A stretch of DNA of 62,745 bases, counting the filler, from Albugo candida (Eukaryota), in the NCBI GenBank assembly GCA_040437565.1. It is 29 parts of 29 records of this genome, joined end to end, with 100 filler letters (N's around TTAATTAATTAA, not from the genome) between each part and the next. Parts side by side here need not be neighbours in the genome. Positions count along the whole stretch, not along the records: positions 35,339 to 37,392 come from JBDOQK010000356.1; 28 more parts are not named here. One strand, written 5' to 3'. The notes beneath the pieces were generated by a model. It was given only the letters and a program-made list of their open reading frames with translations, did no database searches and was not told the DNA's origin. The position numbers and the translations under genes are program-made. This document shows, piece after piece, positions 2,272 through 38,544 of this stretch. The first letter of the stretch is position 1; the number at the start of each line of letters is the position of its first letter.

Positions 2272-4417
2272 TTCCTTGTCGAGTAGTTGAATGTACTGAT
2301 TCTGGAAGAGTGCTTCGAAGTCCATGTTCATTTAAAATGTTTAGTATATATTCTCGATTTGAAGAACTTATTTTAAAATCAACATTAAAATCGCCAGCAA
2401 TGATAATACGATCAAATGAAAAATTGAAAATATACGATAAAGACTGATGCAATATTTGTTGAGTAGGTTGTGGAGAGATATATATGCTGCAATATAAATC
2501 TAGATTTAAAGCAACAATCGCAACACTCACAGTATGACTACCTTGTCGAAATACACGATTATGTGATGTGACTTGTGAGGGATGGAAACGTTCTAAAAGA
2601 CTTTGAGATATATAACAACGTGCACCAATTTTTTCTGTTTGGGTCGACTTATCGGCAGTAGAGATCATAGTAAATCCAGGAATATCGAAACGATCGTTAG
2701 GATTTGTCCATGTTTCATTTAATAAAATAATATCAGAAGAAAGATATACTTTATCGGATATGATTTGTCTAAAGTTGGGTCCTAGACCCTCCACGTTGTG
2801 CGATATGACTTGGATGCTAGTGTTGGATATTTCACGGCTCGATAAATGAGAAAAGTGAGGATTTAGTAATACGTCTTCTTGACGGCACATTTCAACATAA
2901 AGATCACTATGTTCATCTGCAGAGATAGAATTAGGAGGGATGAATTTGTTTTCTTTGCATATAAGCTTCAATCCAGCTGCCTTAGTTGCTCTAGATGCTG
3001 CAACGTACATGGATAATCGCTTCATTCTCTTACGACCAGTATCATAGACTACTACAGAATCATACGTTCCACCTTGAGATTTGTGGACGGTCAATGCCTC
3101 TGCTGGCACTATGGGAAATTGCTTACGACTTAATTGTAATGATCCATTTTTTGATGAAGCAACAATACCAGTAGATGGTGAAATCATGGTCCATGATTCT
3201 TCAGCGATGTTAGCATTTCTTCTTATTCTTTCTTGTGATTTGCGTAAGTTTAAGGCTGAACGTTCTTCTTCGAATTCAATCCATAATCGCATTGGTTTTT
3301 TTTCAACAGCTGTATTTGAAGACACACTTACTTCTGTATCTTCATTGTTATTATTTGATACTATTCTACCATAATCAATTCTTCTTAAGTAGCCTGTGGA
3401 TCCATTAACAATGCCATCACTTGTATCGATATTAATTGAAACCATATATCTTGCACCCACCCTAAGCAAAAGATTCTATAATAACCCTTTATTAACCAAG
3501 TTAGAATGGTTTGAAGAATCTGCTCTATTCATTAAATGATCAATTGCGCTTTGGTTAGCTCGACTACCAAGAACTCGATCAAAAGCAGTGGATACCGCAC
3601 CATCTACATCTGACATTGATAATAAAATCGTAGAATTTGCTGTATCAACTTCCAAATTGGTTTTGAAAAGACAAATTCTTCTACTTGCTTGTAGTGATGA
3701 GATGGTATTAATAGCTGCTTCTTCTTCCGAAGTATTATTACGAATGTTATCAAAAGCTTGTGTAGTACGATTAAGGTCTAAGTGAGGTAAAACTAGTGCA
3801 TTTGAGCGAGTTGATTGTAATTCAGCAGAATTCAATTCTAACATACAAGACTTGATTATTGCGAGGTCGTCATTACTCATTTTACCAACTGCCATGTTAT
3901 TCAAACAGACGGCGAAACTTTGATCTCCACGCTGGCGCATAATTTCTGTTAATCTAAAAACGGAGAACCGCTGCCATAGATTTAATGATCGTGAAGTTCT
4001 TGAATAAATGTTTTTGGCTAGTACACTAGGAAGCTGATTAAAGTCACCAACACAAAGAACAGAAATACCACCAAAAGGCAAATTCAAATCAAATATATAG
4101 CGAAGACGCTGATCGATATGTGAAAACATTTTGTCGGACACCATACTGATTTCATCGATTACAACCAGCTTAAGATCTTTTAACCCAACAGACATAGAAT
4201 GGCTAACCTCTCTAGACAGCTCGCTGAGACCATCATTGGAAGATCTTTGTTGGCTTACAGGTAAACTAAATGCACTATGTACTGTTTGACAATTAATGTT
4301 AAATGCAGCTTTCCCGGTGGGAGCAGTCAAGAGAACAGTTGGTGTTGATGTATCACGATCAAATTCACGATTCAAAGCTTCATACAATACTTTAATTAGC
4401 ATGCTTTTACCGACACC
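2272..4417 (-). mobile_element. Helitron (Helentron/Helitron2-like) PIF1 helicase fused to an EEP/AP-endonuclease domain; partial, with one in-frame TAG at 3476-3478
   Basis: PIF1 motifs: GVGKS at the contig edge, APTGKAA, VIDEISMV, GDFNQL, EIMRQ, VNG, QFP...TVHKSQG, YVAASRA. Then EEP motifs HNVEGL, LNETW, IYISP, AGDFNVD. The two listed ORFs are in the same frame. Confidence 0.88.
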
Positions 4418-8998: not shown

Positions 8999-11136
8999 GC
9001 AATCGTTCCTGGGTAGCTTGAACTATTACAGTCGTTTTATAGAAGATTTTGCAGTATATGCATCTGTGTTGCACGAGTTACGAGAGGCGGACTTTTTCGA
9101 GATGAGCCATGTGGGAGATCGTGATGCTATGTCGGTGAGTTGCGATAACACATCACAAGGAGGTGAGCATGATCCAAATGAGCGATCTCGGTGGGAAAGG
9201 GCCGCCATTGCATTCACTTTGCTGAAGGCCAAGATCGCTACAACCTCGATCCTCAAACATTTCGGTCCATATCGACTTCCAGTGATCGTGGTATATGCTA
9301 GTAAGTGGGCAGTATCGGCATCTCTATTGCAAGAATATGACGGCATATACTGGCCGGTGACATTCACGAGTCGCACACTGAAGCCGAATGAAGTTAATTA
9401 TGGTATGGTGGAGAAAGAAGTTTTAGCCCTACTTCGAATCTTGGGAGTGTGCTACACTATGCTAGTATCCCGAGAGATCAGAGTGCTCACTCGATATTTA
9501 ACATTAGCTTGGCAAGTTCAATCTTCTGGCCTCAATGGGAGACTGGAAAGATGGTATGCGCTGCTATCGAATTGGACACTGGAGGTCAAGAGATGTAACA
9601 AAGGAGATGATGAAATACTAGGCGCTCTCGCAGCTAGTATTACTCCGCGAGATGAGGTAGATGATGTGTTGATTGCAATCGCTCCACAGAATCACTTTCC
9701 AATCCTCCATCTACAGCCCAAGTGTCTTCTCCGGTCTTCCGAGTGGACTCCCAGCATCCTTCCCAGTTTCGGTCGTCAAGCTCTGCACCCTTCAACAACC
9801 CTTGACAGAGGATCAAGAGGATTTGCGACAACTGATATGGAAGAGTCGTCACCTGTTGATCGGAAAAGGAAATGCATTACCCCCTGCAGCACGCGGGCCT
9901 GTTTGTAATATTGATGTGGGAGAGGCGAGGCCGATTGCTCAGCGTGTACGACCTGTTACGCCAAAATTTTCGTGAGAAGTTGGCCGATATGATAAAAGGC
10001 CTGTTTTCAGCCAAGATTATCTGACCTTCGACATCGTCGTGGGCATCACCAATAGTCGTGATTATTAATAAAAATGGAGAAGATATCCGACTGTGTATCG
10101 ACTATCGACGAGTTAATCAGATAACACAGCTGATGGTGTACCCTATGCCACTTATCAGTGAATTGTTGCAGGACATGGACAAAGCAATGTGTTATTGTTC
10201 GCTGGATATGGCGAGTGGTTTTTGGGTGGTAGAGATGACCGAACGAGCAAGATCGATCTCTGCATTTATCACGCCGCCAGGTCTGTTTGAATGGTTGAGG
10301 ATGCCTTTTGGATTGAAGAACGCCCCACATATTTGTCAGCGTTTGATTGATAATGCTCTATATGAGTATCTCAAGATCGGCGCAGATAAGGATGTGAATG
10401 CAACGGATCATCCTAAGTTAACTGATAAGTTTATGTAGGGAGAGCCGGAAATGGATTAAGCGCCGTCCGTGCTAGGCAGGAGATCTTATATTGACGATAT
10501 ATTGATCCCGGCTACGTCATGGATATCTTTGTATGACAAGGTCGAAAGATTATTGACAGCATGCGATCTATGGAATCTGTCGATCAGTCTGACCAAGAGT
10601 TTTTGGGGACGGCGTAAAGTGGATTACTTAGGTCATCAGGTATCATTGGCTGGGTTGGAGGCCAATTCTAAAGAAATAGGATCGCTGGTGAATATTCCTT
10701 TTCCCACAACTTCGCGATCCATGCAATCGTTCCTGGGTAGCTTGAACTATTACAGTCGTTTTATAGAAGATTTTGCAGTATATGCATCTGTGTTGCACGA
10801 GTTACGAGAGGCGGACTTTTTCGAGATGAGCCATGTGGGAGATCGTGATGCTATGTCGGTGAGTTGCGATAACACATCACAAGGAGGTGAGCATGATCCA
10901 AATGAGCGATCTCGGTGGGAAAGGGCCGCCATTGCATTCACTTTGCTGAAGGCCAAGATCGCTACAACCTCGATCCTCAAACATTTCGGTCCATATCGAC
11001 TTCCAGTGATCGTGGTATATGCTAGTAAGTGGGCAGTATCGGCATCTCTATTGCAAGAATATGACGGCATATACTGGCCGGTGACATTCACGAGTCGCAC
11101 ACTGAAGCCGAATGAAGTTAATTATGGTATGGTGGA
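8999..11136 (+). mobile_element. Degenerate oomycete-type Ty3/Gypsy pol (RT + RNase H), permuted, with a 414-bp direct repeat at both contig ends
   Basis: RT motifs IRLCIDYR, SLDMASGFW, RMPFGLKNAP, YIDD. RNase H motifs VYASKWAV, SRTLK...NY...EKEVLA. Several stops. 8999-9412 is repeated at 10723-11136. Confidence 0.92.
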
Positions 11137-13317: not shown

Positions 13318-13563
13318 TTTTATTACTAGTTTTATGTTTTCCGATAATAAAAGATCAGTAATAGTCAATAAANNNNNNNNNNNNNNNNNNNNNNNNNNNN
13401 NNNNNNNNNNNNNNNNTTAATTAATTAANNNNNNNNNNNNNNNNNNNNNNNNNNNNNNNNNNNNNNNNNNNNCTACAATTATAACTTATCTATTCAAAAT
13501 AAACTTTAAAAAGCCCCGGTTTCATCCACAAAACTTGTACAATATCTTATTACCTTTTTCAGA

Positions 13564-14901
13564 ATGGATCCGACGCGTATAGAATTGATAAAAAACTACT
13601 TAGAATCATTAGAGGTTCCTGAAAATGCCACTAAAGCTGAGAAGCGCTATTTAAAAACAAAGGGACATCTATTTACTATATACCGTGACCAATTACATTT
13701 ATTAAACTTAACTACTAGTCACTGTTTAAAGAAAGTGCTTACTAAAGAAGAATCCAAAGAAGCCTTGTTACAATATCATCATCATCCATTAGGAGGGCAC
13801 TTTGGGTTTAAAAACACCGTTTATAAGATCTCTGAAAAATACTATTGGGACAATATGCAGAAGGATATTAAAGAATTTATAAAAGAATGTCCGAACTGTC
13901 AAAATCATGGTGCCAAATTACTAAACGAAAAGTTACACTCAATTAAAGTTTCGGCAAAACCTTTCCAACAAGTATTTATAGATGTTAAACATATAATACC
14001 TTCTAGAAAAGGGTCACGTTATGTTGTGGTAGCTATCTGTTCCTTAACTAAATATGTAGAATTAAAACCCCTTCGCTTTCAAACCTCCGCTGAAATTGCT
14101 CTATTCATTTTTGAAAATATTATCTGTCGACATTCTACTCCCGATACTATATGTACTGATAATGGTTCTCCTATGATTGCTGCTATTGTTGCTGAAGTTT
14201 GTGTTTCCTTCAACATACATCACAAAACTATCACTCCATATAATAGTCAATCTCAAGGATTAGTTGAACGCTTCAACCGTACACTGGATTCAACATTAAA
14301 GTATCGTGATCGTGTAGATAAGAAAGATTGGGATTTATATATCTATGCCTCAATGTATAGCTACAATACTATTAAACAAGAAGCGACAAAACAATCACCC
14401 TTTTATTTATTATATGGATACGAACCAAATACACCATTTGATAACAACCATAAAATTTATAACACAAATGAATCTAGTTTTGAATTAAATTTAATATTAC
14501 GTACATCGCAGCAGATAACCTTACTAGAAAATGCTAGATTAAGTGCAATCAAAAGTATTGAAAAATCTCAAAAAACGCAGCAAAAAAGAATTGAAGCAAA
14601 ATTATTAACCACCAAAAAGGAATTAAAACCAGGATTCAGTTTAGGTGACATTATCAAACTCTACAAAGAAAATGTAAGCAATAGCTGGTCAGGCAAGATA
14701 GACATCAAATGGCACGAAGACCTATACGTTATCCACGAAGTCCTGGGTAAAGGAACCTACCTCATAAAAAACTTAACAAGACCTTTAGAAACTCGAATTC
14801 GAAGAGTTCATGGAAATCGCTTGAAAATCTACACTCAACCCAATGTCAACTGGAATCAGAATTTAAAATTTCTTACTACTTCTAATACTGCACCTATATA
14901 A
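13564..14901 (+). CDS. Gypsy-type DDE integrase, apparently a stand-alone ORF (Ginger/Polinton-like or spliced)
   Basis: HHCC finger H..GGHFG...CPNC; catalytic D (FIDV), D (TDNG), E (GLVER); C-terminal SH3-like KW...Y.I...VHGNRLK. In-frame TAA upstream at 13507. Confidence 0.88.
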   Translation: MDPTRIELIKNYLESLEVPENATKAEKRYLKTKGHLFTIYRDQLHLLNLTTSHCLKKVLTKEESKEALLQYHHHPLGGHFGFKNTVYKISEKYYWDNMQKDIKEFIKECPNCQNHGAKLLNEKLHSIKVSAKPFQQVFIDVKHIIPSRKGSRYVVVAICSLTKYVELKPLRFQTSAEIALFIFENIICRHSTPDTICTDNGSPMIAAIVAEVCVSFNIHHKTITPYNSQSQGLVERFNRTLDSTLKYRDRVDKKDWDLYIYASMYSYNTIKQEATKQSPFYLLYGYEPNTPFDNNHKIYNTNESSFELNLILRTSQQITLLENARLSAIKSIEKSQKTQQKRIEAKLLTTKKELKPGFSLGDIIKLYKENVSNSWSGKIDIKWHEDLYVIHEVLGKGTYLIKNLTRPLETRIRRVHGNRLKIYTQPNVNWNQNLKFLTTSNTAPI

Positions 14902-14998
14902 CTAGTAGCACGTTACTCAAAAAAAAAATAAAATATATATAGCTATTTCTATACAGCCTTTACAAGGTATCTTTATTCCTTTACCTCAAGTTTACAAA

Positions 14999-15556
14999 AT
15001 GTCAAAAACTACTTCTCTCAAGTCAAAAGAAGATACAAAAAAAAGATCCTACTATAGTGGCAAAAGACCTCCTTCTTCTAACATAACCATCACCCGAAAC
15101 TTTGAAGAAGATGACGCGGTGGTAGATTCCAAAAACAATATTATTATTCAAGGAAGTGCTGAAAGAAAAAGGTCCAAATCAAAATTTAAACCTAACACAA
15201 AGACTAACTATAACAAGAAAGATTTTAAGAAAACTATTACTGGACCCTTGCCTACAGAACTGATTGAAGAAGAACAACAATTGCTTCGTGATGCTATAGA
15301 TCGCTTTCAAAAAAATAAAATTGAAATAGAAACACTCAACAAAAGAAATCAAGCCATCTTAGAAGAAGAAATCTGCATCCCAATGGTAGGTCTGTTTCAT
15401 GAACAAATGCCTGTCAAACCTATAAATAAACAAGCCTATTGTGCCCTTCAAATGGAAATAGCCAAATCAATCGTACCTTCCAACCCTGAAATTGCCAATT
15501 TCGTCCGCTTAGCCCGTAAATATGATACTTACTTTGCTAATGAAAAGGCTTTATAA
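14999..15556 (+). CDS. Hypothetical basic 185-aa protein downstream of the integrase
   Basis: ATG-initiated ORF 97 bp after the integrase stop, followed by a long A run; no recognisable motif. Confidence 0.5.
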   Translation: MSKTTSLKSKEDTKKRSYYSGKRPPSSNITITRNFEEDDAVVDSKNNIIIQGSAERKRSKSKFKPNTKTNYNKKDFKKTITGPLPTELIEEEQQLLRDAIDRFQKNKIEIETLNKRNQAILEEEICIPMVGLFHEQMPVKPINKQAYCALQMEIAKSIVPSNPEIANFVRLARKYDTYFANEKAL

Positions 15557-15690
15557 AAAAAAAAAAAAAAAAAAAAATTATATATTTATTNNNNNNNNNN
15601 NNNNNNNNNNNNNNNNNNNNNNNNNNNNNNNNNNTTAATTAATTAANNNNNNNNNNNNNNNNNNNNNNNNNNNNNNNNNNNNNNNNNNNN

Positions 15691-33180: not shown

Positions 33181-35158
33181 CAATGAAAATGTAAACAAAC
33201 ACACCGATATAATCATGCAAAAGAGTATTCATCATACGTTGAAAAGTTGAAGGAGCTGACGTCAAACCGAAAGGCATTACATTAAACAGGTAGGTCCCAA
33301 ACTTACACACAAAACCAGTCTTCTCGATAGAGTTTTCGTCCATTTCAACTTGCCAGTAACCAGTAGCAGCATCCAATGTAGTATAAACGGTTGCACCAGC
33401 TAGTGAATCTAATACTTCGTCAATGTGGGGAATGGGATAGCCATCTTTAATAGTTTTTGCATTCAAGGCAGCATAATTCACCACTAGACGTAACTTTTTT
33501 GAATCCTTCTTAGGTACAAAGAAAATTGGGGCAGTCCATTCACCAGAGCTTGGTTTAATAATATTCAGATCTAATAAATTCTTTATTTCTTCTTTCAAAC
33601 TATCTTCTTCATCATATGATAACTTATAAGGCCTTGACCGAATAGGAATTTCATCTGTAGTTCTTATCACATGTTTTACATCTGTTACTCTACCTACACC
33701 ATTATTCTCAACAAAACACGAACTATACTCTTCAATTAATTGAGCCAAAAAATGAGGAATTGTTTCATCATCACCAGTAACTTGTCTAGCTTCATTTTCA
33801 TTAATAAAAGACGCATGTGAAATAGTATCTTCTTGGTATGTATTTAATTCTACATTATTTATATTCTTCTTTTCTTCATTGTATAATACGTTTACTTGAT
33901 AAATTGACAAACCTTTTCTTTCATGATCTTCATCAGGCAAACATTCAACTTCTATGTAACTTTTACCATTATTAGTTGGTACCACAATCACTCTTCCATT
34001 CTTGATTACTTGAACATTGTGTTGTACTATCCATGGTCTACCAAGTAAACAAACTTCCACATTATCCTCTTCTTCATCTACACAGAAATGTTCTACTCTC
34101 TTCTTCCCTCCAATTCTTACATCTACATCAGTTGCTACGCTACAATATACAGTCTTCTTACTACCAAAACCACACAAGGGAATTTTCTTCTCATTACTAA
34201 TGTTCATATTCACCCTTCTCGCCAACCTTGCACTACACACAGATACTGCTGCACCGGTGTCGATAACGGCTTCAACTAATTGATTATTAATACTAATATG
34301 AACTCTTGATGGTTTAGCGTTCTTCATTCTATGATAGTTGTAAGGATATTCACTAACAATTGATTCCACTTCATCATCAGAAAATTCATCTTCATCTAAT
34401 CCACTAATATCCTCATCCTCTTCGTCATCATAATCATCTGAATTATCACTTGTATACTCTTCGCTATTTTCTTCTTCAAATTGTCTCACAGACGTATTGC
34501 TAACATTCCTACTACTTCTTTCATATTCATCTTCATCCAATAATCCCGCATTTCTTAGGTTATTGATAATCATCGGTTCGTCATTATTATTTCCATTGAT
34601 TTTTTTATTTCTAGATTTTCGTCTGTGTATATATAATATACCTTCTTTAACATCTCTAGCTGCCTTTTTGCTTAAAGACATATATTCCGCAAAAGTGATT
34701 TCTACCTTTGTCTTTTTTAACTTATCCCAGGTGTTCTCTACTACCACCTCTGGTTTCTCTTTTACCCTTAATATTCTATGTTTCCTATTCCCCTTCTTTT
34801 TAATTTCTACCCCTTTACCATTATTATTCACAACAGGTTGAGATACGATACCCATCCCATTACTATTAAAATTATTACTAAAACTAAGTGGTTGTGGTTG
34901 TGGAATAAATTGATTTTGATAGTTTAAAACAGTAGTACTACTTTCAGGTTGATGATATAACACAGGCTGTTGTTGAATAGGTTGAAATATAGGTTGTTGC
35001 ACTGCAGTTTGTGGTAATACAACAGGTGGTGCTATTTGTGTATCTTTTCCTTTTTTATTTTTTGGTTGTTGATTAATTATAGTATCTGTACTTCCCGTTT
35101 GATTTCTTTTCACAGCATAAATGTCTACATCCTCTTTATTATCTCTTACCTGAATCAT
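33181..35158 (-). mobile_element. Ty3/Gypsy gag-pol fragment (aspartic protease + RT), uninterrupted, AT-rich
   Basis: Protease AVIDTGA and LLGRPW; RT motifs WTAPIFFV.KKD, LDAATGYWQ, MPFGLTSAP, cut off just before the DD motif. Confidence 0.93.
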
Positions 35159-35339
35159 TCCAACTATAGGTGATTTAGAAAGTGATGATTCTCCATTTTT
35201 TTGATTATTATTTGTATTATATCCTGTTTTTGTATTTANNNNNNNNNNNNNNNNNNNNNNNNNNNNNNNNNNNNNNNNNNNNTTAATTAATTAANNNNNN
35301 NNNNNNNNNNNNNNNNNNNNNNNNNNNNNNNNNNNNNNG

Positions 35340-37211
35340 CTTGCTAATGATCTATTACGCTGTGCTGGTTATAGTAATTTTACTGCAAATATCTGTCCCA
35401 TCCCTTCAACTAGTTTAAATGGGTTGAGGCTTAATGCGCAATCAATATATGATTTGTTTTGTGTAAAGAAGAGAAGAGGTGATGATAACCAAGAACAAAT
35501 TTGTATCTTTAATTTTGATCAAGAACGTATCTCCGATAGAACCATGGCGGTAAACTATAAAGATGCGGTCTTCAATAGCTTTTTTGATATATCTGCGATA
35601 GCAGATGCTTGCAAGAGAATGGAATTATCATTTGATCACAACATCACTATATTGCCTGGATGTACGCATGTCAGAATTTTGGGATTAAAAAACAAAGACA
35701 GTAGTACTCCTACATCAACTAATGATGTTCGCTCTAAAATAAGAAATAACAACATCCCCGAACATGCTATAAACGAACAAAAAAGAAAGAACAAGACGAC
35801 ACTTAACAATGAAATCGATGTTTTAAAGGCAGAAGAAAAAGAGTTGGATAAACAACTAAAATACAATTATATACAATTAAAAGAACAAGATTTTTCAGAC
35901 AAGATACGTAGACTAAAATCCAAATGGCATAAGACGAGAGAAAATGAAAATTTATCGGTGGATGAACAGAAGCTGAACGATGCTATATATCAAGAGATAG
36001 AAGATAAGAAGATGGAACGTAGTGAGATTTATAACAATATCGTCAGATGTAAAAAAGAACTTTCGACTACAAGATTTGAAGTGTATATTCGACAGAAAGC
36101 ATCATCACCTCAATCCAGGATTGTACCGGCGTCTTCTTCTCCACCTAATACGATTATAGATAAATCAAACAGCGGCTTATACAAAGTAGAAAATGTTCAG
36201 TTTTCTGATAGTGATAGAAAAAACTTATCTCGAAGGTTCACTTGTTCAGGAACAGACAATGGCATCGTCAATATGACAGAATCGATTTCATTTCCGGTGG
36301 ACAAATTTCGGTACCACCTTTTACTGCACAACAAATACTCTGTGTTGTCTGAGGAAGTAGCAGAAAAAAATCCTATACCGTCACAAGAGCCTGATATTCC
36401 CTTTGTGCCATTACCAAAAACCGTTACGATTAATGCAGCAGACATCGACTTTGGTGGCGGCCATTATAGAGCCAGAAAAAAAAGAGAAAAGAGGAAAAGG
36501 AGAAACAAAGAAGTGATTGATAGTGAAAAAGAATTATCTACCCAAAGCATCAAAAATTCTAATGATATTCTCTCTTTGCAAAACGGATACAAAACTCATA
36601 TTCAGCACAGGGATAAGCTAAGGGATTTTTATGATTCGAAGAAGCAAGCTAGGGAAAGAAGAAGATTAGAACTTATAGATAAGAAATTTCGGGAAGTTGT
36701 TTGTTCAAGAGAAAGAAAGAATTTAAAATCAAAAAAGAGAAAGCATTTGTTGATGTTTATCGGTGATAGAGGTCATGGCTATGGATCTAAAATAAAAGGT
36801 CATAGAATATATGGTGGGTTTTGGAAGCAGAAAATCCACAGCAAGTATACGACTGTATTGGTCACAAACGAAAATAAGACTTCCCAGACATGTGTTTTTT
36901 GCTTTTCATCTGTTTTCCATCCCAAGCAACAAATCAATTCTAAAGGAAAGAAGATACATAAAAACGTTAATGGTTCTTTCATGTGCGTCAATCCCAAATG
37001 TGTTTCTGTGATGGCAGGGAAAGCTATTCAATCTAGAGACTCTGTCTCTGCTGCAGCTATAGCAATTTCAGGATTAAGCAAAATGTTATTTCAAGAAACA
37101 CTGCCGTGCTTCTCTACTCGTACAACCAGTCAATACAACACTGGACTATATATTAAAACCGTTTCCTTGTGGACAGCAAGCGGAAAAAGGGCTGACAGCG
37201 GTGCTGTATAA
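35340..37211 (+). CDS. Fanzor1-like (TnpB-derived) RuvC nuclease, 5'-partial
   Basis: Frame open from the contig edge. RuvC-I GTDNG (D at 36255), basic bridge helix, RuvC-II strand FIGDRG, TNENKTSQTCVFC (E at 36870 plus first Zn pair), CVNPKC, RuvC-III SRDSVSAAAI (D at 37038). Confidence 0.88.
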   Translation, partial: LANDLLRCAGYSNFTANICPIPSTSLNGLRLNAQSIYDLFCVKKRRGDDNQEQICIFNFDQERISDRTMAVNYKDAVFNSFFDISAIADACKRMELSFDHNITILPGCTHVRILGLKNKDSSTPTSTNDVRSKIRNNNIPEHAINEQKRKNKTTLNNEIDVLKAEEKELDKQLKYNYIQLKEQDFSDKIRRLKSKWHKTRENENLSVDEQKLNDAIYQEIEDKKMERSEIYNNIVRCKKELSTTRFEVYIRQKASSPQSRIVPASSSPPNTIIDKSNSGLYKVENVQFSDSDRKNLSRRFTCSGTDNGIVNMTESISFPVDKFRYHLLLHNKYSVLSEEVAEKNPIPSQEPDIPFVPLPKTVTINAADIDFGGGHYRARKKREKRKRRNKEVIDSEKELSTQSIKNSNDILSLQNGYKTHIQHRDKLRDFYDSKKQARERRRLELIDKKFREVVCSRERKNLKSKKRKHLLMFIGDRGHGYGSKIKGHRIYGGFWKQKIHSKYTTVLVTNENKTSQTCVFCFSSVFHPKQQINSKGKKIHKNVNGSFMCVNPKCVSVMAGKAIQSRDSVSAAAIAISGLSKMLFQETLPCFSTRTTSQYNTGLYIKTVSLWTASGKRADSGAV

Positions 37212-37245
37212 TCGAGACGGTAATAGTACAAAGCAAAAATAATGA
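37126..37245 (+). ncRNA. Candidate Fanzor omegaRNA (scaffold plus putative guide; ends uncertain)
   Basis: Nested stems spanning the stop codon: CCAGT/ACTGG, and ACCGTTTC/GAGACGGT enclosing CTTGT/GCAAG and ACAGC/GCTGT. Confidence 0.45.
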
Positions 37246-37547
37246 AATGGCCCTTTATGTATTAACTTTTTTAAAAAATTATGTAGTTGGGACTGCTGTT
37301 TTCATTTCCTGAAATTTTGATCGCGAAAATCTTTCGCTCAAAGTAAAATAATCAAAAGACTTGCTTCTGGCATATGGTTCCTAAGCTAGATANNNNNNNN
37401 NNNNNNNNNNNNNNNNNNNNNNNNNNNNNNNNNNNNTTAATTAATTAANNNNNNNNNNNNNNNNNNNNNNNNNNNNNNNNNNNNNNNNNNNNATTTTCAA
37501 AAAGTAGTTTCGTCGTACACCCTCTTCTTCACGTGTTTTTAAAAAAT

Positions 37548-37698
37548 GATCGTAATGCGGATGATTTTATAATCGGTTTATAAGGCGATCGTAATGCAGA
37601 CAATTTTATAATCGGTTTATAGGGCGATCGTAATGCAGACAATTTTATAATCGGTTATAGGGCGATCGTAATGTAGACAATTTTATAATCGGTTTATA
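37548..37698. repeat. Minisatellite, 4 x 38-39 bp
   Basis: Unit GATCGTAATGCAGACAATTTTATAATCGGTTTATAGGGC starts at 37548, 37587, 37626 and 37664. Confidence 0.93.
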
Positions 37699-38544
37699 AA
37701 ATGAAAGAGAAGGAGATGGGTTACTCAATCTTTTTTCTATACGCAATTAGATTGTCAACTTATTTTTTTAAAGCGGATGCAGATTAGTGGTATAATGTAA
37801 AAAGGACTTGGAAAGGGAAAAAAAAGGAGGCATAGCGTATCATTCTTCATTCTTTGTAAAATAAAAGAAAATCACACACTGTTTGTCCTTTTATGAAATG
37901 GTTTTTTCACTTTGATTTTCAAAGAAATACAGGGCTTGTTAATTTCTACGTATTTGGTAATGCCAAAGTTAGCAGACAAATCAATGGGTATACAGTTTAA
38001 TGCATATCAACTTTCTGCACATTAAATTGATACTTGGATATTTAAATTATAAAAGAATATTACCCCTTGAGTTCAATACAACTAGCAGTTCTCTTATTAT
38101 ATTTGTTGCAATTAGTACAATTACTGTCGATGTCTCTTTATTGTTGATTATAGGCACTTATTGTCTGGTTGAATAAGACTACCACCAATCGACTATATTT
38201 AATACCATTGAAAAAGCAATATTTATAGCTTCAATTGTAAAATTTTGTTATACAAGAAAGAAAGAGAGTTCGATAGTAGATTAATAAGAAAGTATGCTTT
38301 TAAATAAAGACGTTTTGAGAGAAAAATATAAAATTAACAACAGTAAAATAGAACAAAACTTAGTGGGATGATAATAAAATTACTTATGGCTATTATGTAC
38401 GTCAATTGTTTTTAAATTTCTATTAAAAATATCAGGTCTTCTTATTAGATGAAATGGAATGTAAGAACATTTTATTTTACACCACTTACTTGAAAGTCAT
38501 AAACAGACTGGCAAAAATATCCTTTAAAAAAAACTAATACACTT

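What the first reader, a model, noticed from the sequence alone, without database searches (positions are those of the whole stretch)
37126..37245. Multi-stem candidate omegaRNA overlapping the Fanzor stop codon
Seen: a locally GC-richer island that can fold as hairpin CCAGT(37126-30)/ACTGG(37140-44). It is followed by a closing stem ACCGTTTC(37158-65)/GAGACGGT(37214-21), possibly extended by TATTA/TAATA, enclosing hairpins CTTGT/GCAAG and ACAGC-ggt-GCTGT. The sequence turns AT-rich after ~37227. Established: TnpB/Fanzor omegaRNAs are encoded at the element's right end, often overlapping the ORF 3' end, and take their guide from the flank. Inference: the element ends near 37225-37230 and the next ~15-20 nt are the guide.
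Basis: partly seen in the sequence, partly recalled or inferred. Interest (0 to 1): 0.75.

Follow-up and report, generated by a model that had tools for sequence, protein, structure and literature searches.

The report
Fanzor guide RNA with an intron
The tail of this fungal jumping gene, which encodes the RNA-guided DNA cutter Fanzor, appears to carry a small spliceosomal intron inside its guide-RNA region, so the guide may have to be spliced before it can aim at the DNA next to the element, something I did not find described for Fanzors.

Summary
The stems are in the sequence, but the main one is chance-level and poorly conserved. The ORF is a Mucorales-type Fanzor1 with an intact RuvC triad. 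The element does not end at 37225-30: a second genomic copy stays 98% identical to 37304, then diverges. The AT-rich stretch taken for the guide looks like a 67-nt spliceosomal intron (37220-37286). Its donor lies 185 nt after the RuvC-III motif; 4 of 4 metagenomic homologs have one at 180-190. Alone the intron scores weakly (p about 0.08). By eye, 9 of 15 published Mucorales Fanzor1 ends show a hairpin followed by a donor, and the two yeast-made Parasitella omegaRNAs share their supposed guide, one ending in a branch point and pyrimidine tract. Best reading: omegaRNA = leader, hairpin 37195-37207, spliced junction, 18-nt terminal exon, then guide from the flank after 37304. No RNA data were available, so splicing is inferred. 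The contig probably comes from a fungus co-assembled with an oomycete. Earlier scan notes report introns upstream of Spizellomyces ghost omegaRNAs, none inside the scaffold. New variant of a known kind; interest 0.68.

The parts
35339..37211 (+). 3' part of a Fanzor1 ORF, open from the start of contig C356 to TAA 37209-11 (623 codons; 595 aa from the first TTG at 35424). Upstream coding pieces lie on C1471 (36-nt overlap, with an intron) and C633 (a 92% identical copy).
   Evidence: 30-47% identity to 12 proteins, the named ones from Mucor, Rhizopus and Helicostylum; top six Foldseek hits are PpFz and SpuFz, E 1e-6 to 2e-5.
36255..36257 (+). RuvC-I aspartate D278 (GTDNG)
   Evidence: Invariant in 13 of 13 rows of alignment A2; position; catalytic role inferred from the family.
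36870..37040 (+). RuvC-II glutamate E483, 7 residues before the zinc finger (C490, C493, C521, C526), and RuvC-III aspartate D539
   Evidence: the short E-to-zinc-finger spacing is the Fanzor signature given in PMC13565253 (passage).
37126..37144 (+). CCAGT/ACTGG hairpin in coding sequence; probably incidental
   Evidence: Present; no counterpart in alignment A4.
37158..37165 (+).
   Evidence: 8 of 8 pairs here, 6-bp run in L013, weak or absent in L014-L016; chance-level length.
37186..37194 (+). Purine-rich leader with GGGCT (37189-93); inferred region of the omegaRNA 5' end
   Evidence: G, C and T of this motif are invariant in 5 of 5 rows of A6; published Fanzor1 omegaRNAs start about 7 nt before the first stem. 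The 5' end is inferred, not measured.
37195..37207 (+). Hairpin SL1 (ACAGC-GGT-GCTGT). Its 5' arm (37194-37202) can instead pair over 9 bp with 37292-37300.
   Evidence: A hairpin ends 6-13 nt before the donor in 5 of 5 loci (combined p 0.006, or 0.04 with three groups; search window chosen after seeing them). MCi-6, MCi-5 and MCi-7 carry compensatory versions (by eye). The long-range pairing is the RNAfold optimum of the spliced form.
37208..37219 (+). Linker holding the stop codon; end of the first omegaRNA exon
   Evidence: 12 nt between hairpin and donor; 11, 13 and 13 nt in L014-L016 and 6 nt in L013.
37220..37286 (+). Candidate spliceosomal intron, 67 nt, 22% GC: donor G|GTAATA, branch-like TTAAC at 37262-66 ending 20 nt before the 3' end, acceptor TAG at 37284-86
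   Evidence: Best candidate in the region at 2.7 bits, matched by 173 of 2000 shuffles and 57 of 828 genomic tiles. Donor 185 nt after the RD codon against 180, 189, 190, 190 in L013-L016; a donor this good occurs at 2 of 4090 positions of the contig. Not shown by RNA.
37287..37304 (+). Terminal 18-nt exon and right end of the element (ends in TTTTCA; the last 2-4 nt may be target-derived)
   Evidence: Identical in both copies, which diverge from the next base; can close a stem with 37194-37202 or with 37214-22.
37305..37319 (+). Predicted guide of this copy: about the first 15 nt of flank (start could shift if a target duplication belongs to the scaffold)
   Evidence: First variable sequence between copies; 14-15-nt guide length from PMC10432273 section 7. 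Inference.
37305..37392 (+). Flank: an unrelated dispersed AT-rich repeat into which the element inserted; not part of the element
   Evidence: 5 other contigs match 37326-37392 at 82-87% and continue past the junction with other sequence.

Best explanation
This is the right end of a Mucorales-type Fanzor1 transposon, and its omegaRNA is made from a spliced transcript. The Fanzor transcript reads through the stop codon, the 93-nt tail and the element end (37304) into the flank. The spliceosome removes 37220-37286. The 5' end is trimmed to about 37186-37190. The mature scaffold is about 50 nt: leader, a stem built on ACAGC 37195-99 (closed locally by 37203-07, or at long range by the terminal exon), and a few unpaired bases. 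About 15 nt of flank follow as guide, so the nuclease cuts the empty donor site and promotes restoration of the element. Shown here: Fanzor1 identity, intact catalytic residues, the end at 37304 (two copies), and splice-site motifs at a conserved distance from the RuvC-III motif. Inferred: transcription, splicing, 5' processing, binding, guide start and homing. Component odds: Fanzor1 0.98; end at 37304 within 4 nt 0.88; intron real 0.7; spliced RNA is the working guide RNA 0.55.
For: (1) The second copy ends its identity at 37304, and the flank is a separate repeat that runs past the junction elsewhere. (2) Donor at +185 from the RD codon; 4 of 4 metagenomic homologs have G|GTA at +180 to +190 although they are only 48-53% identical to the window there. 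(3) Length 67 nt and 22% GC match the self-trained intron set of the fungal contigs (31 confident introns, median 68 nt). The same donor hexamer opens a homology-supported coding intron in L015 and candidate introns in L057 and L054. The same TTAAC branch motif is in the tail intron of L010. (4) Homolog tails hold complete introns: L013 900-963 (5.7 bits), L016 1375-1437 (8.4), L014 997-1063 (1.8), L015 2531-2604 (1.2). (5) By eye on PMC3627910 additional files 2 and 3: 9 of 15 Mucorales families whose 3' ends I saw have a hairpin followed by a donor. In MCi-1, ROr-2 and PBl-1 the last AG lies 2 nt before the element end. The deposited protein that by file order is ROr-4 stops exactly at the donor, where splicing creates its stop codon. 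MCi-5 and MCi-7, without an intron, end within about 11 nt of the hairpin, so the scaffold can be that short. (6) PMC10432273 supplementary file 5: two Parasitella loci with divergent proteins give yeast-made omegaRNAs that both continue CAG|GTAAGC into nearly the same 'guide'; the RNA of locus 59 runs 50 nt past the donor and ends in CTAAT plus a pyrimidine tract, as an unspliced intron would.
Against: No RNA evidence exists for this locus. On its own the intron is weak: 2.7 bits, at the 10th percentile of the training set, acceptor -0.7 bits, p about 0.07-0.09; the model is ab initio and has no branch-point term. The donor slot and hairpin window were fixed after I had seen the motifs. L014-L016 are 63-69% identical to each other and L013 belongs to the ROr-4 family, so independent cases are few. 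Splicing improves the folding z-score in the window (+0.45 to -1.09), L013 and L014 but not in L015 or L016. RNAalifold on the MAFFT alignment gives 0 pairs. The unspliced RNA can also form a 9-bp terminal stem, GAGACGGTA/TGCTGTTTT, that needs the first three intron bases, and its 5' arm resembles an exonic arm in L013. The first introns of L014 and L016 are short (42-43 nt), with the branch motif only 3 nt from the AG, and L015 has no matching first acceptor. The end rests on two copies in a fragmented assembly, and the left end is not assembled.
Confidence: 0.55

Rival explanations
1. Same element end and same flank-derived guide, but the omegaRNA is unspliced (about 115-nt scaffold). The AT-rich 67 nt are the loop of a long stem closed by the terminal 18 nt. 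Any splicing affects only the mRNA's 3' UTR or does not happen.
For: Both long-range stems (37194-37202 with 37292-37300; 37214-22 with 37294-37302) can form without splicing, and the first is in the RNAfold centroid of 37190-37304. Fanzor1 scaffolds tolerate variable regions beyond SL1 (PMC11423790 section 5). The intron score alone is weak.
Against: It does not explain a donor at the conserved distance in 5 of 5 loci, nor tails of 150-210 nt with two introns in L014-L016 and long tails in ROr-1, ROr-2 and MCi-1. Unspliced tails fold no better than shuffles in the window, L014, L015 and L016.
Confidence: 0.25
2. The first reader's fold is the scaffold (about 37150-37228) and the protein takes the next 15-20 nt as guide. 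Because the element really ends at 37304, that guide would be internal to the element and fixed across copies, as appears to be the case for PpFz1 made in yeast.
For: The 8-bp stem has probability 0.98-1.0 when 37150-37228 is folded with short flanks, gives the lowest constrained energy of the unspliced models, and has a 6-bp counterpart with two double changes in L013. PpFz1 is active with a guide segment (C50-C58) that lies 12-20 nt downstream of a donor-like site.
Against: The proposed boundary is contradicted by the second copy. A fixed internal guide cannot recognise empty donor sites. The stem is chance-level in length and absent or weak in 3 of 4 homologs.
Confidence: 0.12
3. No working omegaRNA is encoded here: the tail is a decayed or ordinary 3' UTR, with or without an intron, and the protein uses a guide RNA made elsewhere or none.
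For: No significant folding signal for the region, no Rfam match, no consensus structure from automatic alignment.
Against: The frame and catalytic residues are intact, the two copies are 98% identical up to a sharp end, hairpin and donor keep their position across divergent homologs, and Fanzor1 omegaRNAs come from this position in the tested systems.
Confidence: 0.08

Closest known systems
[quoted passage not shown]
   Same: Same protein clade (TDNG, GDRG-like, TNE, zinc finger and RD motifs). The hairpin at the ORF end is nearly the same as in MCi-6 and compensatory to MCi-5 and MCi-7. A donor follows it in ROr-4, PBl-3, MCi-4 and MCi-6, at 180, 176, 177 and 196 nt from the RD codon (by eye).
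   Different: A new family (30-47% identity to the nearest proteins found). The paper predates omegaRNA, and 'intron' and 'splic' do not occur in its main text. Terminal inverted repeats and target duplication could not be determined here.
PpFz1 of Parasitella parasitica (Xu et al. 2024, PMC11423790, PDB 9CF0/9CF1; I read sections 5, 11, 24, 26, search passages and Table S3; also supplementary file 5 of Saito et al. 2023, PMC10432273)
   Same: Top structural match; a Mucorales Fanzor1; short scaffold with one main stem-loop followed 13 nt later by CAG|GTAAGC.
   Different: A different subclade: 10-13% identity in the structural alignment and no phmmer match at E up to 1. Its omegaRNA was defined only by expression in S. 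cerevisiae and described as contiguous; 'intron' does not occur in the main text.
SpuFz1 omegaRNA of Spizellomyces punctatus (Saito et al. 2023, PMC10432273; I read section 7, search passages and supplementary file 5)
   Same: omegaRNA from the 3' end of the element, scaffold through the terminal repeat, 14-15-nt guide from the flank; fold match E 4e-6.
   Different: Its 75-nt scaffold is contiguous in native small-RNA data; the paper's main text has no 'intron'.
IStrons, IS605/IS607 elements with TnpB and a group I intron (bioRxiv 10.1101/2023.11.20.567912, abstract start and passages; PMC13521648, search listing only)
   Same: One transposon end serves both as omegaRNA and as a splicing substrate, with competing folds.
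   Different: Bacterial and self-splicing; the whole element is the intron and, as the title states, intron and guide RNA are in conflict. Here a small spliceosomal intron lies inside the omegaRNA region, and splicing is proposed to build the guide RNA.

Membership tests
Fanzor1 nuclease | RuvC D-E-D triad with the glutamate about six residues before the zinc finger | tested here: met
   D278, E483 (7 before C490), D539 (criterion).
Fanzor1 nuclease | C-terminal zinc finger (TNB) | tested here: met
   C490, C493, C521, C526; Pfam PF07282 only at E 0.089, below its cut-off.
Fanzor1 nuclease | Fold closest to solved Fanzor1 structures | tested here: met
   Ranks 1-6 are PpFz and SpuFz, E 1e-6 to 2e-5, TM-score 0.24-0.34 on a model of mean pLDDT 73.
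Fanzor1 nuclease | Encoded in a multi-copy eukaryotic mobile element with a sharp right end | tested here: met
   Two right ends with different flanks; an upstream copy at 92% identity; an intron in the coding region.
Fanzor1 nuclease | RNA-guided, TAM-dependent DNA cleavage | not testable with these tools
   Needs a reconstituted RNP.
Fanzor1 omegaRNA | Lies at the element's right end, overlapping or following the ORF end, with variable flank next to it | tested here: met
   End at 37304, 93 nt after the stop; flanks differ between copies.
Fanzor1 omegaRNA | Conserved first stem-loop of about 7 bp | tested here: inconclusive
   A 4-6-bp hairpin at the same place in 5 of 5 loci, combined p 0.006-0.04; 5 bp locally or 9 bp at long range in the window; RNAalifold found 0 pairs.
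Fanzor1 omegaRNA | Terminal scaffold bases in a double-stranded stem, no pseudoknot (PMC10711439 passage) | tested here: inconclusive
   The terminal exon can close either of two stems in folding predictions; covariation could not be scored.
Fanzor1 omegaRNA | Expressed small RNA bound by the protein, extending 14-15 nt into the flank | not testable with these tools
   No run could be laid on this stretch.
U2-type spliceosomal intron (37220-37286) | GT donor, branch motif and YAG acceptor, with host-typical length and composition | tested here: met
   G|GTAATA, TTAAC ending 20 nt before the end, TAG, 67 nt, 22% GC; total score low (10th percentile), acceptor weak.
U2-type spliceosomal intron (37220-37286) | Position conserved in homologs | tested here: met
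   Donor at 180-190 nt from the RD codon in 4 of 4 homologs, 185 here; acceptor positions differ.
U2-type spliceosomal intron (37220-37286) | Junction seen in RNA | not testable with these tools
   No run could be laid on this stretch.
MuDR-like Fanzor elements (ROr-4, PBl-3, MCi-4) | Terminal inverted repeats and a 9-bp target duplication | tested here: inconclusive
   The last 22 nt occur only at the two right ends with up to 2 mismatches; the left end was not reached; degenerate repeats would be missed.

The most novel reading that the evidence does not exclude
Mucorales Fanzor1 elements make their omegaRNA by spliceosomal splicing. An intron that starts about 5-25 nt after the first stem-loop removes most of the element's terminal sequence, including much of the terminal inverted repeat in several families, and joins the scaffold to the last few bases and the flank-derived guide. 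This would free the DNA end needed for transposition from the RNA-structure constraints of the guide. It would also mean that the published PpFz1 omegaRNA, made in budding yeast, is the unspliced form and that its 'guide' is intron sequence.
Probability: 0.55. Interest if true: 0.82.

Novelty: new variant of a known kind. Interest (0 to 1): 0.68.

Why it matters
An omegaRNA at the end of a Fanzor1 is ordinary. An intron inside it is not, as far as my searches reach. Fanzor guide RNAs must carry the transposon's end sequence, and the published solution is to fold terminal repeats and target duplications into the scaffold (PMC10711439 passages). Splicing the repeat out would be a second, eukaryote-specific solution. 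It would tie guide production to a spliced, Pol II-type transcript, and could give the host or the element a switch between working and non-working guides. It has practical weight too: Fanzor scaffolds are usually mapped in yeast, E. coli or cell-free systems that may not splice these introns, so scaffolds, guide boundaries and perhaps TAMs of Mucorales Fanzors, including the structurally solved PpFz1, may be mis-assigned, and the native scaffolds may be about 50 nt or less. The claim can be tested at once with Rhizopus or Mucor RNA-seq.

Tried and rejected
RNA runs: none was listed for 35339-37304, so no reads could be laid; this is no evidence either way. Rfam: nothing significant. Sequence search of solved structures: 0 matches; only the fold search placed the protein. 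More homologous DNA: none confirmed in viral contigs (19 and 50 candidate stretches) or prokaryote genomes (20 and 122); the metagenome scan gave 4 of 75. The 1580 protein relatives found (150 listed) come without DNA. First intron training on 200 kb of large contigs was dropped, because those contigs are oomycete-type; training was redone on 33 AT-rich pieces (72 kb), including 11 of 20 newly fetched contigs that passed a GC cut of 37.5%. MAFFT plus RNAalifold on the five hairpin regions gave no consensus pairs; loops differ in length and the hairpins were not aligned in register. Guide target search: the first 18 nt of flank have 5 other matches with 2 mismatches, all on large contigs (C2-C82), control 0; I do not read these as targets. 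The flank of the second copy is single-copy. Left end: a walk upstream reached C1471 and C633, both still coding. The two differences between copies both fall in the candidate intron, but the shared stretch is too short and assembly-biased for that to count. An alternative donor at 37226 folds well after splicing but scores -1.9 bits as a donor; rejected as less likely. A TAM cannot be called: related empty sites read TTGCA or TTCAATT before the flank, which hints that the terminal CA or TCA may be target-derived; left open. No covariance model was built, as five divergent sequences are too few.
Full report
Setting. The window is a chain of 29 unplaced contigs of about 2 kb. The finding lies on C356 (window 35339-37392). 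The assembly is mixed: 17 elicitin matches lie on large contigs of 41-50% GC, while the 2 fungal Zn2Cys6 matches lie on tiny AT-rich contigs. C356 is 35% GC and its named protein relatives are from Mucor, Rhizopus and Helicostylum. I infer that it comes from a co-assembled Mucorales-type fungus and not from the oomycete.

The protein. The frame is open for 623 codons up to TAA at 37209-11. It has D278, E483 seven residues before a four-cysteine zinc finger, and D539. The six best Foldseek matches are PpFz and SpuFz. [quoted passage not shown] Upstream pieces on C1471 and C633 are also open, with one coding intron. The left end was not reached.

The observation. All named stems are present, with one small correction to the outer extension. 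The long stem has a 6-bp counterpart in L013, a broken one in L015 and none at the same offset in L014 or L016.

The boundary. A search of the assembly with 37090-37304 gave 2 places, this one and C3931. C3931 matches 37176-37304 with one substitution and one inserted base, then diverges completely. The window's flank after 37304 is another dispersed repeat, found on 5 other contigs that continue past the junction with different sequence. The last 2-4 bases may be target-derived (unresolved).

What the AT-rich stretch is. 37220-37286 begins G|GTAATA, carries TTAAC ending 20 nt before its end, closes with TAG, and is 67 nt long at 22% GC. A splice model trained ab initio on AT-rich contigs of the same assembly (75 candidate clusters, 31 confident introns, median 68 nt) ranks it first in the region but gives it only 2.7 bits; 173 of 2000 shuffles and 57 of 828 genomic tiles do as well. 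Alone it is only suggestive. The support is comparative. Measured from the RuvC-III RD codon, the donor is at +185; the 4 homologous loci from the metagenome scan (4 of 75 candidates) have G|GTA at +180, +189, +190 and +190, though they are 48-53% identical to the window there. A donor as good as the window's occurs at 2 of 4090 positions of C356, about 0.005 for a 10-nt slot (the slot was set after I saw the motif). A hairpin ends 6-13 nt before the donor in 5 of 5 loci (combined p 0.006, or 0.04 when L014-L016 count once). RNAalifold on the automatic alignment found no pairs.

Published sequences, read by eye and not scored. In additional file 2 of PMC3627910 I saw the 3' ends of 15 Mucorales families (the ends of ROr-3 and MCi-10 were not shown). 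Nine (ROr-1, ROr-2, ROr-4, PBl-1, PBl-2, PBl-3, MCi-1, MCi-4, MCi-6) have a hairpin followed by a donor. Two (MCi-2, MCi-3) have a donor in the last codon, as do 3 of 3 similar Fanzors in this assembly. Two (MCi-5, MCi-7) end within about 11 nt of the hairpin with no intron. Two (MCi-8, MCi-9) showed neither. In MCi-1, ROr-2 and PBl-1 the last AG is 2 nt from the element end, and in MCi-4 and ROr-1 an AG lies 8 nt from it. Joining the first donor to that acceptor, with an assumed TA target duplication, gives a short second stem in ROr-1, ROr-2 and MCi-1 (inference). The window's hairpin differs from that of MCi-6 by an A-U to G-C double change at second codon positions (DSGAV against GSGAA), which points to selection on the RNA. 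In supplementary file 5 of PMC10432273, two Parasitella loci with divergent proteins give yeast-made omegaRNAs that both pass CAG|GTAAGC and then share nearly the same next 24 nt; the RNA of locus 59 runs 50 nt past the donor and ends in CTAAT and a pyrimidine tract. The PpFz1 guide segment named in PMC11423790 (C50-C58) lies in that shared stretch. I read this as an unspliced intron used as guide; I could not check the genomic loci.

How it most likely works. The transcript runs through the tail into the flank, the intron is removed, the 5' end is trimmed to just before the hairpin, and a scaffold of about 50 nt plus about 15 nt of flank guides the nuclease to the empty site. That Fanzor1 guides come from the flank and serve restoration of the element is taken from PMC10432273 section 7 and from passages of PMC13565253; 5' processing by the nuclease is shown for TnpB and left open for Fanzor in the IStron preprint. 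Two folds share the arm 37195-99: the local hairpin, which homologs support, and a 9-bp stem with the terminal exon, which RNAfold prefers after splicing (-16.1 against about -7 kcal/mol) and which leaves 4 nt before the flank, as in MCi-5. I cannot choose between them.

Against this reading. There is no RNA evidence. The acceptor is weak. Splicing improves folding z in 3 of 5 loci only. The unspliced RNA can loop out the AT-rich stretch with a 9-bp stem that uses three intron bases. Independent homologs are few, and the first introns of L014 and L016 are atypical.

Novelty. Nine full-text searches listed no paper on a spliced Fanzor omegaRNA. 'Intron' does not occur in the main texts of PMC11423790, PMC10432273, PMC10711439 or PMC3627910; the passages I saw in PMC10530073 and its preprint concern introns in the coding sequence; the 2026 review PMC13565253 has no 'spliceosom'. 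I read passages, named sections and the supplements cited above, and no whole text. Not seen: the supplementary figures and Data S1 of PMC11423790, the main supplementary PDF of PMC10432273, the supplements of PMC10530073, PMC10711439 and the preprints, and most subscription journals; any of these could hold a remark on these introns. Earlier scan notes describe spliced transcripts upstream of Spizellomyces ghost omegaRNAs (unchecked), which is a different layout; look-ups for an intron within the scaffold and by sequence returned no match.

Verdict. A real omegaRNA region of a new Fanzor1 family, with a different end and guide than first proposed, and probably interrupted by a spliceosomal intron. 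New variant of a known kind; interest 0.68; 0.82 if the spliced-guide reading holds across Mucorales (probability 0.55).

Noticed in passing
Whole window and G000: The assembly mixes an oomycete (large contigs, elicitins) with a Mucorales-type fungus (short AT-rich contigs); window segments split into about 26-37% and 41-47% GC. Findings on the short contigs should not be credited to the main organism.
   Followed up: partly
PMC10432273 supplementary file 5, IDs 58 and 59; PMC11423790 Table S3: The two yeast-made Parasitella omegaRNAs share their presumed guide after CAG|GTAAGC, and one ends in a branch point and pyrimidine tract; the structurally solved PpFz1 guide may be unspliced intron.
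   Followed up: partly
L010 1977-2037 (C316), L011 (C1014), L070 (C4198): Three MCi-2/MCi-3-like Fanzor1 families in the same fungal fraction each have a donor in the last codon (AA|GT), so splicing would change the protein's C-terminus; C316 has an open frame of 625 codons.
   Followed up: partly
L009/L019 (C327): A second family of the same Fanzor1 clade (37% identity), with a frame break in the middle; its 3' end was not found.
   Followed up: partly
L014 909-950 and L016 1286-1328: Short first introns (42-43 nt) with CTAAC or CTGAC only 3 nt before the AG, followed by a 46-nt pyrimidine-rich segment and a second intron; in ROr-1 a second donor follows the first acceptor directly. These could be nested or stepwise introns.
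   Followed up: no
window 37305-37392; L003-L007: A dispersed AT-rich repeat family, at least 6 copies at 82-87% identity, of unknown kind, used here as the insertion target.
   Followed up: partly
L002 316-321 (flank of the second copy): In C3931 the element's terminal pyrimidine run plus the first flank base forms a good acceptor (CAG), absent in the window copy; splicing could differ between insertion sites.
   Followed up: no
window 2272-4417, 13473-15590, 33181-35238, 8999-11136: Other mobile-element pieces: a helicase with an endonuclease-like tail (Helitron-like, by eye), an integrase-like ORF (by eye), a protease and reverse transcriptase ORF (Pfam) and a GC-richer reverse-transcriptase-like ORF (by eye).
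   Followed up: no
window 37555-37700: About four head-to-tail copies of a unit of roughly 37 nt on the neighbouring contig.
   Followed up: no
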